From: Fidelibacterota bacterium
Lineage (GTDB): Bacteria > Fidelibacterota > UBA8477 > JABMPR01
Reading direction: 5' to 3'
Length of the DNA stretch: 64,000 bases
NCBI GenBank assembly: GCA_021736185.1
Contig: JAIPGJ010000002.1
Span: forward strand, 143-64,142
The position numbers and the translations under genes were made by a program. Every line of letters starts with the position of its first letter. The stretch's first letter is position 1. Positions 23,074 through 61,004 of the stretch are shown here, piece after piece. The notes below the pieces were generated by a model. It made no database searches. It was not told the origin of the DNA and was given only the letters and a program-made list of their open reading frames with translations.

Positions 23074-23101
23074 ATTATAACGCGCATAACGCGCATTTCA
23101 A
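23074..23101 (-). promoter_or_regulatory. putative sigma70-type promoter (TTGAAA-N16-TATAAT) with embedded ATGCGCG repeats
   Basis: The minus strand reads TTGAAATGCGCGTTATGCGCGTTATAAT about 48 nt upstream of the ATG at 23026. A third ATGCGCG lies just downstream (23061-23067). Confidence 0.4.
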
Positions 23102-23221
23102 GTATTTTTATGAAATTTTGTAATAAAGGCTGTCCCAGAACACGAGATAGTCCCCTTTGTTGTTTTTAGACTCTGATTTTCACTGAGAGGAGCCGACAGT
23201 GGTTATTCAAGCAAAAGAGGA

Positions 23222-23315
23222 TGCGTTTGGGATTGCGTCTTTCTGAACTGTCCCAATCACAACCCCAGTCCACCCTATACCCCTATACCCCCTTATGCCT
23301 TTATACCCTCAATAA
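23222..23315 (-). repeat. 3'-exon part of a duplicated intergenic module (copy 1; paralog of 60847-60928)
   Basis: TTGAGGGTATA, GGTATAG repeats, ACTGGG and GGACAG..CAG.AAGAC.C.AT.CCAAAC.CA are shared with the copy after the 58506..60788 gene. Confidence 0.6.
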
Positions 23316-23320
23316 ATCGA

Positions 23321-23390
23321 GTAGGAGGATAGGGATTAATTCCCTATCCGTCCTCTCACACCACCCTGCGTACGGTTCCGTACAGGGCGG
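23321..23390 (-). ncRNA. group II intron ribozyme domains V and VI
   Basis: Hand-folded hairpins immediately 3' of the intron ORF stop; see the intron entry above. Confidence 0.75.
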
Positions 23391-23399
23391 TTCCTTAAT

Positions 23400-24797
23400 T
23401 TACACCTTAACCTTTCGGTAATAATCCATGAAGAAGAGGTATCCAGCTACTTGAAGACGAGCATTGGTGATTGACCTGCTCAAGATTGGGCTCTTGGCTG
23501 TATTCCAATATCCCTTTCTTGTATTTGCAAATTCCCAAGCTTTGTATTTAGGTATGCCCAGTTTTGTGAGGTTACGTAAACGGGTTCTTATTCGTTTCCA
23601 TTGTTTCCAAATCACCATACGTAAACGCCTACGATACCATTTATCTATTCTTATCAATAGTTTATGCATATCAGCAAGTTTGAAATAGTTGACCCAGCCT
23701 CTGATGTAGATTTTGAGCTGCTCTTTCCTCCTTGCATTACCCCAACCATTACTTCTGGATGTGAGAACTTTGATCCGCTCCTTCATCTTAGTAATGCTTT
23801 TCGGGTGTACCCGTAGCAGTCCATTGCCATCATGGACATAGAACGAATATCCCAGGAATTTAATCCTTGAGACACTGGCTACTTTCGTCTTCTCCTTATT
23901 CACCTTGAGGAACAACTTCTTCTCAATAAATGACACAATGCTTGTCAATACGCGGTTTGCACTACGCTCACTCCTGGTAAATATCACCAAGTCATCAGCG
24001 TAGCGAACAAAGCGATGCCCGCGGGATTCAAGCTCCTTATCCAACTCATTAAGCATGATATTGCTCAATAATGGACTCAAAGGACCACCCTGTGGAACAC
24101 CCATTCTTGTTGGCTCAAACTTCTCGCCTACAACTACACCAGCATTTAGATATTTATGGATGAGCGAGATTACCCGGCCATCTTTTATAGTTCTTGATAA
24201 TACTTCTATCAATTTACTCTGATTGACTTTATCAAAGAACTTCTCTAAATCCATATCAACAGCATATTTGTAACCGGCTGTGATATTTGCTCTACATTGC
24301 TGTAAAGCCTGGTGGGCACTGCGTCCAGGTCTAAAACCATAACTACTGTCTGAAAATTGTAGCTCATATATAGGCGACAAGACCTGCTGGATTGCCTGTT
24401 GTATCACACGGTCTACTACCGTCGGTATACCAAGCAACCGCTTCTTGTTATTGTCCTTGGGTATCTCTACCCTGCGGACTGGATTAGGACGGTACTTACC
24501 ATCCAATATGGAACTTATTAGCTCATCTCTATTTTGAATTAGATAATCTTTTAAAGATTCGACATCCATCTTATCAACCCCACCACTTCCTTTGTTGGCT
24601 CGAACTTTCTTATAAGCCAGGTTCAGATTTGGTGGAGCAAGGATTTGCTCTAGTAATCCACATTCCGATTCGTTAAAACTTGTGATGTTGTTTTCAGTTA
24701 TCCACATAAAGGTCTGCACTCCAGAATATCCTTCGAGTTCCGCTCTAGCTTTCCTCTGGGAGCTGTCTTTTGACATTTTCTGCTTTCTATCCTTCAT
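23400..24797 (-). CDS. ltrA: group II intron reverse transcriptase/maturase (no endonuclease domain)
   Basis: RT motifs RRVEIPKDNNKKRLLGIPTVVDRVIQ, GVPQGGPLSPLLSNIML and RYADDLVIF. Maturase X domain RGWVNYFKLA. 465 aa with no HNH tail, as in IIC intron proteins. Confidence 0.95.
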   Translation of the reverse strand: MKDRKQKMSKDSSQRKARAELEGYSGVQTFMWITENNITSFNESECGLLEQILAPPNLNLAYKKVRANKGSGGVDKMDVESLKDYLIQNRDELISSILDGKYRPNPVRRVEIPKDNNKKRLLGIPTVVDRVIQQAIQQVLSPIYELQFSDSSYGFRPGRSAHQALQQCRANITAGYKYAVDMDLEKFFDKVNQSKLIEVLSRTIKDGRVISLIHKYLNAGVVVGEKFEPTRMGVPQGGPLSPLLSNIMLNELDKELESRGHRFVRYADDLVIFTRSERSANRVLTSIVSFIEKKLFLKVNKEKTKVASVSRIKFLGYSFYVHDGNGLLRVHPKSITKMKERIKVLTSRSNGWGNARRKEQLKIYIRGWVNYFKLADMHKLLIRIDKWYRRRLRMVIWKQWKRIRTRLRNLTKLGIPKYKAWEFANTRKGYWNTAKSPILSRSITNARLQVAGYLFFMDYYRKVKV

Positions 24798-25214
24798 CTG
24801 GTAACATTCATTTACTGATCACTACTTAAGGTTCAGTCCTTTCTAATTCGCTGTCGATAAATTAGTACTATGACCTCGGCTGACTTCTCACAGCTAATCT
24901 TTTTCAACCGTAATGGAATACATCCTCATTACGTCTGTGAGATCTCCCGTGGTAAGGTTAATAACTTTCTTTCCATGTAACTGTACCATCTACATCCTGA
25001 TATTCCGTGTAGTTTTCGGACTTCGTTTTGTTTAGTAAACTTATCCATATCAGACTGCCTAATGATCTTCGTGTTCCTCAGTTCGGAAATTTGCCTTAAG
25101 CTTCCTTCAGATTCGCAGTCACCCACGACACCCTTGCTCTCGACTAGTGGTTGGATACTACATTCCTCCACAGTGGACTTGCACCACCTAGTTATTAACC
25201 ATGCACGGCACACT

Positions 25215-25246
25215 AAAAAAAGAGGCCGCCCTTTCAGGACAGCCTC
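25215..25246 (-). terminator. rho-independent terminator of the blc gene (intron homing site)
   Basis: The minus strand reads GAGGCTGTCC-TGAAA-GGGCGGCCTC (10-bp stem including 2 G-U pairs) followed by TTTTTTT. Confidence 0.8.
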
Positions 25247-25278: not shown

Positions 25279-25803
25279 TTAGGGGTGATCAACAAAGATC
25301 AAGGCACTGGTGTCGAACCCCAGACTGGCTGCTTTTTCAATAAATTGATCTTTCAACTCCTGGCTTACTTCTGGGGTCCGCGATAAAAACCACAGATATT
25401 TGGTGCTGGAACCTGAGATAAAAGCGTACTGGTATTCTGAATCCAGCTCAAAAACGGCATAGCTTCCATAAAAAGGACCAAAAAACGAAACCTTTAGATG
25501 ACCGACCTGGGGCTCGCCCACAAAGAAGGCCTTGCCCTCTGCATCTTTCCATTTTTCCTGCTGGCCGGAATAACCGCGATTGGTCACGCTGACACCGCCA
25601 TCGGGTCGCATGGCATATTCAGCAGTAACCGCCTGAAGCCCTCGTTCAAAAGAATGATCCAGCCTGGCTATCTCATACCATTTCCCCAGATATTTATCCA
25701 ACTCAAAACCCTGAACGGGAGTCACCCCTTCAGGCACTCCCAGACAACCCCCAAATAAAAACGGCAGCATGAGTGCCAGTATTTTTTTCATAAATTTCCC
25801 CAT
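25279..25803 (-). CDS. blc: outer-membrane lipoprotein lipocalin Blc
   Basis: Lipobox LFGGC. Motifs FELDKYLGKWYEIARLDHSFERGL and YLWFLSRTP are canonical bacterial lipocalin signatures. Confidence 0.9.
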   Translation of the reverse strand: MGKFMKKILALMLPFLFGGCLGVPEGVTPVQGFELDKYLGKWYEIARLDHSFERGLQAVTAEYAMRPDGGVSVTNRGYSGQQEKWKDAEGKAFFVGEPQVGHLKVSFFGPFYGSYAVFELDSEYQYAFISGSSTKYLWFLSRTPEVSQELKDQFIEKAASLGFDTSALIFVDHP

Positions 25804-25928: not shown

Positions 25929-26444
25929 TTAGAATTGATCAACATAAATTAATTGTGAGGTATCAAACCCTAGCTTTTGCGACTTTTCCACAAAATCATC
26001 TATGATATCCTCCTTCAAAAATTTTGTTCTGGAGAGCAGCCATAGAAAGGATCTGTCTTTTCCACAGACATAGGCATATTCGTAATCCGGGTCCAGCTCG
26101 AAAATAACATAGGGTTTATAGAGTGGACCAAAATAAGAAACCTTAAGGTGGCCGATGTTCGGGTCACCTGCCAGAGAGATTCGGCCTTCTTTTTCTCTCC
26201 ATTCAGTCCATTTGGTCAGATAGCCCCGATTCTTGAAAACGATATCGCCATCCTGGTTGCGGCGATATTCCGTGCTGACACTCTTGAGTCCTCGTTCATC
26301 CGCATTATCCAATCGAGCGATTTCATACCAGGTACCCAGATATCGATTTATTTTAAAGCGCTTAACCGGTTTAATCCCCTCGGGTACATCCACACAGCCA
26401 TTCACAACCAACGCCACCAATATTACTGTAAACAGGGTTTTCAC
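25929..26444 (-). CDS. blc: outer-membrane lipoprotein lipocalin Blc, tandem paralog
   Basis: Lipobox VVNGC. Motifs FKINRYLGTWYEIARLDNADERGL and FLWLLSRT. Collinear with the neighbouring blc gene. Confidence 0.9.
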   Translation of the reverse strand: MKTLFTVILVALVVNGCVDVPEGIKPVKRFKINRYLGTWYEIARLDNADERGLKSVSTEYRRNQDGDIVFKNRGYLTKWTEWREKEGRISLAGDPNIGHLKVSYFGPLYKPYVIFELDPDYEYAYVCGKDRSFLWLLSRTKFLKEDIIDDFVEKSQKLGFDTSQLIYVDQF

Positions 26445-47308: not shown

Positions 47309-47351
47309 CTTGAGGCTTAGCCTTACGAAGGCTTAAAACCTTCGTAAGGCT
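47309..47351. repeat. REP hairpin (family B), left flank of RAYT
   Basis: CTTGAGGCTT-AGCCTTACGAAGG-CTTAAAA-CCTTCGTAAGGCT with a 13-bp perfect stem. Preceded by ATTAAC. Confidence 0.85.
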
Positions 47352-47932: not shown

Positions 47933-47975
47933 CTTGAGGCTTAGCCTTACGAAGGTTTAAAACCTTCGTAAGGCT
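47933..47975. repeat. REP hairpin (family B), right flank of RAYT
   Basis: Identical to 47309-47351 except for one loop base (T for C), in the same orientation and also preceded by ATTAAC. It encodes the last 8 codons and the stop of the murU-like gene. Confidence 0.85.
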
Positions 47976-60810: not shown

Positions 60811-60928
60811 AAAGAGGCTGTCCCAAAAGGGCGGCCTCTTTTTTTATATGTTGAGGGTATAGTGGTATAGAGTAAACTGGGTCTCGGTGGAGATACGGAC
60901 AGCCCAGCAAGACACCATTCCAAACACA
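60811..60928 (+). repeat. uninterrupted copy of the duplicated intergenic module (terminator + GGTATAG repeats + conserved 3' block)
   Basis: AAGAGGCTGTCCCAAAAGGGCGGCCTCTTTTTTTA-TATGTTGAGGGTATAGTGGTATAG...ACTGGG...GGACAGCCCAGCAAGACACCATTCCAAACACA aligns with the exon flanks of the intron at 25246/23315. Confidence 0.65.
60814..60845 (+). terminator. rho-independent terminator of the 58506..60788 gene
   Basis: GAGGCTGTCC-CAAAA-GGGCGGCCTC followed by seven T. Confidence 0.8.
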
Positions 60929-61004
60929 ACTGCCTGGGTCACCATGGCCAGTTCCTATCGATGAAAATCCGGCTTCGCGAGTCCCGCAAAACCTATCATA
61001 AAAA

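What the first reader, a model, noticed from the sequence alone, without database searches (positions are those of the whole stretch)
23316..25246. Class C group II intron inserted immediately after a rho-independent terminator, with boundaries pinned by an in-window empty site
Seen in sequence (minus strand):
- The blc terminator GAGGCTGTCC-TGAAA-GGGCGGCCTC plus TTTTTTTA is followed at once by GTGTGCCGTGCATGG... (a GUGYG 5' end at 25213).
- The 465-aa ORF has RT motifs (YADD) and a maturase X domain but no HNH/En domain.
- Directly after its stop, a 30-nt hairpin CCGCCCUGUACGG/CCGUACGCAGGGUGG carries a 2-nt bulge and a CGC triad.
- A second hairpin (23355-23321) has a bulged A 7 nt before ...CTCGAT.

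Established knowledge: IIC introns lack the En domain, use a CGC triad, and home to sites just downstream of terminator stem-loops.

Joining the two exon flanks gives TTTTTTTA|TTATTGAGGGTATA. This matches the uninterrupted paralog TTTTTTTA|TATGTTGAGGGTATA at 60839-60860.
Basis: partly seen in the sequence, partly recalled or inferred. Interest (0 to 1): 0.6.

Follow-up and report, generated by a model that had tools for sequence, protein, structure and literature searches.

The report
Class C intron behind a terminator
This is a complete, apparently functional mobile group II intron of the well-known class C type, sitting where that class always sits (just behind a transcription terminator), so it is real but ordinary.

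Summary
Window 25213..23316 (minus strand, 1898 nt) is a complete group II intron.

- **Ribozyme:** Rfam models match domains I-IV (138.6 and 50.2 bits) and domains V/VI (43.3 bits).
- **Protein:** the 465-aa ORF is a reverse transcriptase/maturase with no endonuclease domain. Its best solved relatives are the class C proteins of E.r.I1 and GsI-IIC (E 1e-121 and 1e-120). LtrA (IIA) scores only 1e-46.
- **Class C RNA hallmarks:** all those tested are present. These are the 30-nt domain V with a CGC triad, the AGGAA bulge, and a 3-4 bp EBS1.
- **Boundaries:** they are pinned better than by the in-window "empty site". 19 near-identical congener copies (plus one divergent copy) and about 55 distant relatives each start after a different terminator hairpin plus T-run. 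25 congener copies all end at CTCGAT.
- **Target pairing:** covariation locates EBS1 at 25034-25031 (UAAA), which pairs with the site's UUUA. EBS3 is G24990.

One correction. The "paralog" at 60815 is not a gene paralog. It is one of at least 15 copies of a genus-wide modular intergenic repeat that begins with this terminator hairpin.

This is a new member of a known kind, of low interest.

The parts
25222..25246 (-). Target stem-loop in the 5' exon: intrinsic-terminator hairpin GAGGCUGUCC-UGAAA-GGGCGGCCUC, 32 nt after the stop of the lipocalin (Blc-like) gene. It is also 'hairpin A', the first module of a dispersed repeat.
   Evidence: -21.3 kcal/mol, z -5.6; repeat membership; lipocalin.
25214..25221 (-). 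U7 + A tail of the terminator. IBS1 is its last 3-4 nt, (U)UUA at 25217-25214. The insertion point is 8 nt after the stem.
   Evidence: Pairing with EBS1 shown by covariation in 57 relatives.
23316..25213 (-). Complete class C (IIC) group II intron, 1898 nt, from GUGUG to CUCGAU.
   Evidence: Rfam. 5' boundary from 19 congener copies and about 55 distant relatives. 3' boundary from 25 + 70 copies. Single copy in this assembly.
24957..25128 (-). Domain I core, matching Rfam group-II-D1D4-3 over its full length. It contains the unpaired 11-nt epsilon-prime bulge with AGGAA (25106-25102), the EBS1 loop and the EBS3 position.
   Evidence: 138.6 bits, model 1-170/170; AGGAA; the IIC definition of this bulge is in PMC1702495.
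25031..25034 (-). EBS1, 5'-UAA(A)-3' (intron nt 180-183), in the terminal loop ACUAAACA. It pairs with IBS1 (U)UUA.
   Evidence: Covariation: exon -1/-2/-3 versus intron 180/181/182 gives 89-91% Watson-Crick pairs against 32-49% expected, with all four pair types. Coordinates.
24990..24990 (-). Probable EBS3 (G, intron nt 224). It pairs with IBS3, the first 3'-exon base U at 23315, as a G.U wobble.
   Evidence: this is the best column, 92% Watson-Crick in 52 relatives. Three of the four relatives with a non-T exon base are Watson-Crick compensated and the fourth is a G.U wobble. Weakly informative.
24836..24904 (-). Segment towards domains II-IV, matching Rfam group-II-D1D4-1.
   Evidence: 50.2 bits, gathering score 35.
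23400..24797 (-). Intron-encoded protein in domain IV: 465 aa with RT, X/thumb (maturase) and a C-terminal DNA-binding region. YADD is present and there is no HNH/En domain.
   Evidence: TIGR04416 420 bits; full-length alignment to the E.r.I1 and GsI-IIC proteins, which also lack En.
23361..23390 (-). Domain V, 30 nt, with a CGC catalytic triad (G.U at its middle pair), a 2-nt bulge and a GAAC tetraloop.
   Evidence: CGC in 70 of 71 relatives, with compensatory stem changes.
23319..23358 (-). Domain VI, with the bulged branch-point A at 23322 (position -7). The intron ends AU at 23317-23316.
   Evidence: -24.7 kcal/mol, z -5.8. A and AU conserved in 70 of 71 relatives.
23125..23315 (-). 3' exon, which is the rest of the interrupted modular repeat: UUAUUGAGGGUAUA, GGGTATAG units, an approximately 110-nt core and a degenerate hairpin E. 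IBS3 is the U at 23315.
60815..61000 (+).
23074..23101 (-). Context: near-consensus sigma-70-type promoter (TTGAAA-16-TATAAT) of the downstream DUF2878 operon. The intron and repeat therefore lie between a terminator and the next promoter and interrupt no gene.
   Evidence: DUF2878.

Best explanation
A full-length bacterial class C (IIC) group II intron retroelement.

How it works:
- Its RNA folds into the compact six-domain IIC ribozyme.
- The ORF in domain IV encodes an endonuclease-less reverse transcriptase/maturase, which binds the excised RNA.
- The particle recognises single-stranded DNA carrying an intrinsic-terminator stem-loop. It reverse-splices about 8 nt downstream of the stem.
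- The site is chosen only by a 3-4 bp EBS1-IBS1 pairing (UAAA with UUUA) and a 1-bp EBS3-IBS3 pairing (G.U).
- cDNA synthesis is then primed by a nascent strand at a replication fork.

Because the intron lies after the terminator of the lipocalin gene and before the next promoter, it disrupts no gene. It is transcribed only by terminator read-through.

Shown here: identity, class, exact boundaries, the EBS1/IBS1 pairing, and the terminator rule across many copies. Inferred from established knowledge of IIC introns: reverse splicing into ssDNA, fork-primed cDNA synthesis, read-through expression, and current activity.
For: - Rfam RF02001 138.6 bits and RF01998 50.2 bits; RF00029 43.3 bits for DV/DVI.
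- Protein: RVT_1 + GIIM only. TIGR04416 scores 420 bits, above its cutoff of 300, while all retron, Drt and Abi models fall far below theirs.
- PDB ranking: the class C proteins 7uim (E.r.I1, 2e-121), 6ar1 (GsI-IIC, 8e-120) and 5hhj/5hhl (1e-91) come first, then LtrA (IIA, 1e-46) and 6me0 (5e-38). The alignments are full length at roughly half identical residues.
- IIC RNA hallmarks as defined in PMC1702495: short DV with CGC (70 of 71 relatives), the 11-nt AGGAA bulge, a 3-bp covarying EBS1, and no EBS2-type signal.
- Terminator rule: the 19 near-identical congener 5' junctions each follow a different hairpin plus T-run. Mean MFE is -19.3 kcal/mol against -7.7 for control DNA 105-150 nt upstream, and 19 of 19 have a T-run. 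For 48 distinct 5' exons of distant relatives the mean is -19.3 against -5.3 for shuffles.
- 25 congener 3' junctions end at CUCGAU, then unrelated DNA; the first exon base is T in 20 of 25.
- The ORF is intact. The identical intron occurs in two public metagenome runs. Copies 93-99% identical over the stretches assembled occur in up to 12-13 places in a congener genome.
Against:
- There is only one copy in this 89%-complete draft, although a sequence-compatible empty site (same hairpin, UUUA, +1 U) lies 36 kb away at 60815-60847. Activity in this genome is therefore unproven.
- EBS3 forms a wobble pair with this site, not a Watson-Crick pair.
- RF00029 passes its gathering score by only 3 bits and was missed in the whole-window scan.
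- No formal phylogeny with reference proteins of all eight classes was built. Class assignment rests on score ranking plus RNA hallmarks.
Confidence: 0.93

Rival explanations
1. A real class C intron, but an immobile resident in this genome. It would persist as a single inherited copy that no longer retrotransposes, for example through a subtle defect in the protein or ribozyme, or because read-through expression is too low.
For: Single copy, with no partial copies at contig ends. At least one fully compatible site in the same contig is unoccupied, at 60815-60847, and other repeat copies carry T-run + A as well. EBS3 is G, although 20 of 25 congener sites and this site have T at +1.
Against: The ORF is uninterrupted with all motifs, and every ribozyme domain is intact. 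EBS1 (UAA) differs from the congener version (GAU) yet matches its own site exactly, as expected after a genuine EBS1-guided insertion. Public-run unitigs carrying the identical intron stop 8-9 nt upstream and 0-1 nt downstream of it, which suggests more than one flanking context in those samples. The empty site is on the other strand, which GC skew and gene orientation suggest is the unfavoured one.
Confidence: 0.3
2. A hairpin-targeting group II intron of another lineage (IIC-attC type, or an E/F-like lineage that converged on stem-loop targets) rather than a canonical terminator-targeting class C intron.
For: Class was not tested with a full reference phylogeny. Earlier notes of this scan report non-IIC hairpin-targeting introns elsewhere (leads only).
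Against: The CGC triad, the short 30-nt DV, the AGGAA bulge and the 3-bp EBS1 are all the IIC state. The best solved relatives are canonical class C proteins by more than 70 orders of magnitude. The 5' exons carry T-runs after the stem (19 of 19 congeners, 37 of 48 distant relatives), so they are terminators and not attC sites.
Confidence: 0.04
3. A domesticated reverse transcriptase (retron, DRT, Abi or group-II-like defence RT) that merely resembles an intron protein.
For: There are weak sub-threshold matches to retron St85 (98.6 bits, cutoff 235) and to Drt2/3a/4/5.
Against: All are far below their cutoffs, whereas TIGR04416 passes. A complete ribozyme with covarying exon-binding sites flanks the ORF. 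Copies are multiple and sit after different terminators.
Confidence: 0.01

Closest known systems
E.r.I1 (Eubacterium rectale) and GsI-IIC (Geobacillus stearothermophilus) class C group II introns, whose proteins have solved structures (PDB 7uim, 6ar1)
   Same: Full-length protein alignment (residues 47-461 and 47-445) at E 1e-121 and 1e-120, with the same RT-X-D architecture and no endonuclease. Same target type, a structured stem-loop DNA.
   Different: Only about half the residues are identical. This protein has an approximately 45-residue N-terminal extension, shared with its nearest relatives from Bacteroidota assemblies. The host is an uncultured lineage whose name I could not determine.
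B.h.I1 of Bacillus halodurans, the reference terminator-targeting IIC intron (PMC1702495; Robart et al. 2007, cited in PMC4424553)
   Same: Insertion a few nt after an intrinsic terminator stem-loop plus U-run. EBS1-IBS1 of 3-4 bp, EBS3-IBS3, no EBS2, CGC triad, DV shortened, AGGAA bulge, multiple copies behind different terminators.
   Different: No biochemical data here. The B.h.I1 sequence was not compared directly.
Unnamed class C introns in Bacteroidota genomes and MAGs (for example Labilibaculum manganireducens, Salegentibacter agarivorans, Arenibacter latericius; loci L013-L054)
   Same: Protein 66-79% identical over its full length. Same 5' GUG(U/C)GCC, the same EBS1 loop frame GC-NNN-ACA, the same DV/DVI, and the same terminator context.
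   Different: Different EBS1 triplets, each matched to its own site. These are annotated, if at all, only as generic RT/maturase.
Group II introns residing in dispersed repeats
   Same: Here the target hairpin is the first module of a repeat with at least 15 copies. A second intron copy in congener G008 sits behind the repeat's other terminal hairpin.
   Different: Most copies of this intron family sit behind unrelated terminators, so the association looks incidental and not specific.

Membership tests
Bacterial class C (IIC) group II introns | Group II ribozyme with domains I-VI, including catalytic DV and a DVI with a bulged branch A | tested here: met
   RF02001 138.6 bits, RF01998 50.2 bits, RF00029 43.3 bits. 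DVI folds with a bulged A at -7.
Bacterial class C (IIC) group II introns | Intron-encoded RT/maturase belonging to IEP class C | tested here: met
   TIGR04416 420 bits. The top four PDB sequences are all class C proteins (E 1e-121 to 1e-91), against IIA 1e-46. This is score ranking, not a tree.
Bacterial class C (IIC) group II introns | No endonuclease (En/HNH) domain in the protein | tested here: met
   Only RVT_1 and GIIM in Pfam. Aligns end to end with the En-less E.r.I1 protein.
Bacterial class C (IIC) group II introns | DV basal stem with CGC in place of AGC, and a distal stem 2 bp shorter (PMC1702495) | tested here: met
   30-nt DV, CCGCC..., aligned with 4 model positions deleted in the distal stem. 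CGC in 70 of 71 relatives.
Bacterial class C (IIC) group II introns | Epsilon-prime region is an 11-nt bulge with conserved AGGAA (PMC1702495) | tested here: met
   The unpaired stretch AAUCUGAAGGAA in the RF02001 alignment. AGGAA at 25106-25102.
Bacterial class C (IIC) group II introns | EBS1-IBS1 of only 3-4 bp | tested here: met
   Three adjacent columns (intron 180-182) covary antiparallel with exon -1..-3, at 89-91% Watson-Crick with four pair types. Position -4 shows no clear signal.
Bacterial class C (IIC) group II introns | No EBS2-IBS2 pairing; a stem-loop occupies the IBS2 position | tested here: inconclusive
   No intron column covaries with exon -4..-14 (best excess 0.19, against 0.41-0.57 for EBS1), and a hairpin is present there. 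The low sequence variety of T-runs limits the power of this test.
Bacterial class C (IIC) group II introns | 3' exon defined by a single EBS3-IBS3 pair | tested here: inconclusive
   The best column (intron 224) pairs with exon +1 in 92% of 52 relatives. Three of the four non-T cases are Watson-Crick compensated and the fourth is a G.U wobble. This is few informative cases, and the window's own pair is a G.U wobble.
Bacterial class C (IIC) group II introns | Insertion shortly downstream of intrinsic terminator stem-loops, outside genes | tested here: met
   The window's own site, 19 near-identical congener copies and about 55 distant relatives, with energies and T-runs.
Bacterial class C (IIC) group II introns | Splicing and retromobility | not testable with these tools
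There is only indirect support from multi-copy congeners.
IIC-attC subgroup (S.ma.I2 type) | Insertion into integron attC recombination sites | tested here: not met
   The targets are G+C-rich perfect hairpins followed by T-runs (19 of 19 congener copies), directly after gene stops. Integron context was not searched.
Retron / DRT / Abi reverse transcriptases | Score at or above the curated NCBIfam cutoff of the family | tested here: not met
   Retron St85 98.6 bits (cutoff 235), Drt3a 70.8 (200), Drt2 62.7 (390), AbiA 34.7 (250).

The most novel reading that the evidence does not exclude
The target hairpin is not an ordinary gene terminator. It is the first module of a genus-wide, modular 'two-terminator cassette' repeat. 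Its layout is: hairpin A plus T-run, a variable GGGTATAG array, a core, then hairpin E facing the other way. It is lodged between convergent genes at a nearly fixed 23-32 nt after stop codons. On the boldest reading this repeat is itself mobile, by an unknown mechanism, and spreads ready-made homing sites. The repeat and the class C intron would then form a coupled pair of selfish elements, with the intron's 3-nt EBS1 (UAA here, GAU in congeners) retuned to the repeat's T7A tail.
Probability: 0.12. Interest if true: 0.4.

Novelty: new member of a known kind. Interest (0 to 1): 0.17.

Why it matters
It matters little as biology, because class C introns behind terminators have been textbook material since 2001-2007. 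This scan's own notes already hold hundreds of similar findings.

Its practical value is threefold:
- **Annotation.** The 1.9-kb stretch between the lipocalin gene and the DUF2878 operon is a retroelement, not operon content. The 'split' lipid-handling block noted by another reader is an insertion artefact.
- **A clean data set.** About 75 independent junctions show 3-bp EBS1-IBS1 covariation in an uncharacterised Bacteroidota-centred IIC subgroup. Thermostable or otherwise useful RTs of the GsI-IIC type could be mined from it.
- **A pointer** to an undescribed modular intergenic repeat in this genus.

Tried and rejected
- **Whole-window Rfam scan** at gathering thresholds missed DV/DVI. Only the focused scan found it. 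The initial absence was a filter effect, not evidence against the intron.
- **Further copies in the window's own genome:** none, not even 16-mers at contig ends.
- **Is the repeat a known RNA?** No Rfam match at E <= 1 in 13 copies.
- **Is its core a structured RNA?** RNAalifold gives -2.4 kcal/mol with no covariation support; rejected.
- **Does its core encode a peptide?** A 23-codon ATG...TGA frame is visible in some copies. However, 1-nt indels in 3 of 12 copies and lost ATGs in others argue against it (reading the alignment).
- **Is hairpin A the REP of the RAYT transposase at 47.3-48.0 kb?** No, the sequence is different.
- **Host taxonomy:** It was not determined.
- **EBS1 of the multi-copy congener G008:** not recoverable, because the assembly breaks about 130 nt inside each copy.
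Full report
**What is there**

On the minus strand, the lipocalin (Blc-like) gene is at 25803..25279 (Lipocalin_2, E 5e-42). A perfect terminator follows it:
- hairpin GAGGCUGUCC-UGAAA-GGGCGGCCUC at 25246-25222;
- U7 at 25221-25215, then A at 25214.

The hairpin folds at -21.3 kcal/mol with z = -5.6, and the terminator scan finds it.

The next base, 25213, starts GUGUGCCGUGCAUGG. From there to 23316 (...CCUACUCGAU) lies a 1898-nt element.

**It is a group II intron**

- Rfam matches group-II-D1D4-3 over the whole model (25128-24957, 138.6 bits, E 1e-28).
- Rfam matches group-II-D1D4-1 at 24904-24836 (50.2 bits).
- When the region is scanned alone, Intron_gpII (domains V and VI) matches 23392-23316 at 43.3 bits, above its gathering score of 40. 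The whole-window scan had filtered this hit out.
- The 465-aa ORF (24797..23400) has RVT_1 (7e-46) and the group II maturase domain GIIM (8e-17) and nothing else.
- The ORF passes NCBI's equivalog model for group II RT/maturases (TIGR04416, 420 bits, cutoff 300). Retron, Drt and Abi models score far below their cutoffs.

**It is class C**

Protein evidence. Among all solved structures the best matches are the class C intron proteins:

| Protein | PDB | Class | E-value |
|---|---|---|---|
| E.r.I1 | 7uim | C | 2e-121 |
| GsI-IIC | 6ar1 | C | 8e-120 |
| R.i./E.r. RT domains | 5hhj, 5hhl | C | 1e-91 |
| LtrA | 5g2x | IIA | 1e-46 |
| Maturase reverse transcriptase | 6me0 | not stated by the tool | 5e-38 |

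The alignments run end to end at roughly half identical residues, and none of these class C proteins has an endonuclease domain.

RNA evidence. The hallmarks listed by Toor, Robart and Zimmerly (PMC1702495) were checked one by one.
- Domain V (23390-23361) is 30 nt, with four distal-stem model positions deleted. It has CGC where other classes have AGC, and a 2-nt bulge.
- The epsilon-prime region is an unpaired AAUCUGAAGGAA carrying the conserved AGGAA (25106-25102).
- Domain VI (23358-23319) has a bulged A at 23322, 7 nt from the 3' end.
- In 71 aligned relatives, CGC, the branch A and the terminal AU are each kept in 70. The DV and DVI stems show compensatory changes.

**Boundaries and the terminator rule**

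Much stronger evidence exists.

Congeneric genomes hold copies 93-99% identical over the stretches assembled, up to 12-13 per genome. In the 19 near-identical 5' junctions, similarity stops exactly at the G of GUGUGCC. Upstream is each time a different hairpin followed by a T-run and 2-4 more bases. One further, more divergent copy (82% identical) shows the same hairpin context.

| 5' exon set | Mean MFE (kcal/mol) | Control | T-run |
|---|---|---|---|
| 19 congener copies, 45 nt | -19.3 | -7.7 (DNA 105-150 nt further upstream) | 19 of 19 |
| 48 distinct distant relatives, 40 nt | -19.3 | -5.3 (shuffles) | 37 of 48 |

In 25 congener 3' junctions, similarity stops exactly after CUCGAU. The next base is T in 20, C in 4 and A in 1. 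About 55 distant relatives (58-79% protein identity, mostly Bacteroidota and Bacillota assemblies) show the same pattern.

**How the site is read**

I aligned the 5' ribozyme parts of 57 relatives and asked which intron columns pair with the last exon bases.
- Intron positions 180, 181 and 182 pair antiparallel with exon -1, -2 and -3 in 89-91% of sequences, against 32-49% expected. All four Watson-Crick pair types occur, and no other column comes close.
- The loop reads GC-NNN-ACA. Examples: AAC with exon ...GUU, AAU with ...AUU, CAA with ...UUG, ACG with ...CGU, UGC with ...GCA.
- In the window, EBS1 is UAA(A) at 25034-25031 and the exon ends (U)UUA, a perfect match.
- The two congener copies whose EBS1 region is assembled carry GAU instead. 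GAU matches the ...AUC that precedes five of the copies in genome G008. So the window's copy has a retuned EBS1 that fits its own site.
- For the 3' exon, the best column is intron 224 (G at 24990). It pairs in 92% of 52 relatives. Three of the four non-T cases are Watson-Crick compensated and the fourth is a G.U wobble. In the window the pair is also a G.U wobble.
- No column covaries with exon -4 to -14, as expected if there is no EBS2. The test has little power in T-runs.

**Mechanism**

Shown here: identity, class, ends, the EBS1 pairing, and the stem-loop plus T-run context.

Inferred from what is established for class C introns (PMC1702495; PMC4424553): the RNA-protein particle reverse-splices into single-stranded DNA that presents the stem-loop. 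The endonuclease-less protein uses a nascent strand at the replication fork as primer.

The intron sits after a terminator and before the near-consensus promoter at 23101-23074. It therefore interrupts no gene and depends on read-through for expression.

In this window the plus strand has negative GC skew (-0.024), and about 64% of long-ORF length is on the minus strand. This fits the intron lying in the strand co-oriented with replication. That would also explain why the equally well-matched site at 60815-60847 on the other strand is empty. This last point is a weak inference.

**Is it active here?**

For activity:
- The ORF and ribozyme are intact.
- The identical sequence is present in two public metagenome runs, on unitigs that stop 8-9 nt before and 0-1 nt after the intron. 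That suggests more than one flanking context in those samples.

Against:
- The draft genome (89% complete) has only one copy and no fragments at contig ends.

I put current activity at roughly 0.6-0.7.

**Correction to the 'paralog'**

The hairpin and the 3' flank are not private to the lipocalin gene. They belong to a dispersed modular repeat with at least 15 copies in this genome (24 matches) and 8-24 matches in several congeners.

Its layout, in order:
1. Hairpin A, GAGGCTGTCCCAAAAGGGCGGCCTC, plus a T-run. Its two conserved G.U pairs would be C.A on the other strand.
2. AUGUCGAGGGUAUA and one to more than eight GGGTATAG units.
3. A core of about 110 nt, with optional inserts of about 35 nt and about 33 nt.
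4. Hairpin E, which pairs better on the opposite strand.

In 17 of 18 copies a same-strand ORF stops 9-32 nt before hairpin A, and usually a convergent ORF ends just beyond hairpin E.

The repeat has no Rfam match and no conserved core structure. It is unrelated to the REP sequences of the RAYT gene in the window.

The intron split one such copy (25246..23125). Another intron copy in congener G008 sits behind a hairpin of the E type. Most copies sit behind unrelated terminators, so I read the association as incidental.

**Verdict**

This is a new member of a well-known kind, in an uncharacterised IIC subgroup centred on Bacteroidota-type hosts. Interest is low. The modular repeat is the only feature nearby that is not already explained.

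Noticed in passing
window 60815-61000 (+) and 25246..23125 (-, split by the intron); other copies in the same genome, e.g. loci L140-L152: A genus-wide modular intergenic repeat, with at least 15 copies here and 8-24 matches in congeners. Layout: terminator hairpin A plus T-run, a variable array of GGGTATAG units (1 to more than 8), a core of about 110 nt with optional inserts of about 35 and 33 nt, and an oppositely oriented terminator-like hairpin E. In 17 of 18 copies a gene stops 9-32 nt before hairpin A, and usually a convergent gene ends beyond hairpin E. There is no Rfam match, no conserved core fold and no consistent ORF. Its mechanism of spread is unknown.
   Followed up: partly
loci L002, L003/L108 (congeners G017, G021) versus window 25034-25032: Intron copies 93-94% identical to the window's carry EBS1 = GAU instead of UAA. 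GAU fits the ...AUC before five G008 copies. Other G008 sites (…GUA, …UGC, …AUA) would fit neither, which suggests several EBS1 variants in one genome, or tolerated mismatches. The G008 assembly breaks inside every copy, so this could not be checked.
   Followed up: partly
loci L138, L139 (Logan unitigs of SRR12088350 and SRR12088349): Unitigs of 1907 nt hold the identical intron with only 8-9 nt of 5' flank (…CTTTTTTTA) and 0-1 nt of 3' flank. This is the pattern expected if the intron has more than one flanking context in those samples.
   Followed up: no
window 23074-23101 (-): A near-consensus promoter (TTGAAA, 16-nt spacer, TATAAT; 11 of 12 matches) just downstream of the repeat. It drives the DUF2878 operon, so the intron lies between transcription units.
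   Followed up: partly
window 25279-25803 and 25929-26444 (-): Two tandem lipocalin (Blc-like, Lipocalin_2) genes lie upstream of the intron.
   Followed up: no
window 47309-47351 and 47933-47975: REP-type hairpins flank a minus-strand RAYT-like gene (TTGAGGCTTAGCCTTACGAAGG...CCTTCGTAAGGCT). They share only the GAGGCT start with hairpin A of the modular repeat and are otherwise unrelated.
   Followed up: partly
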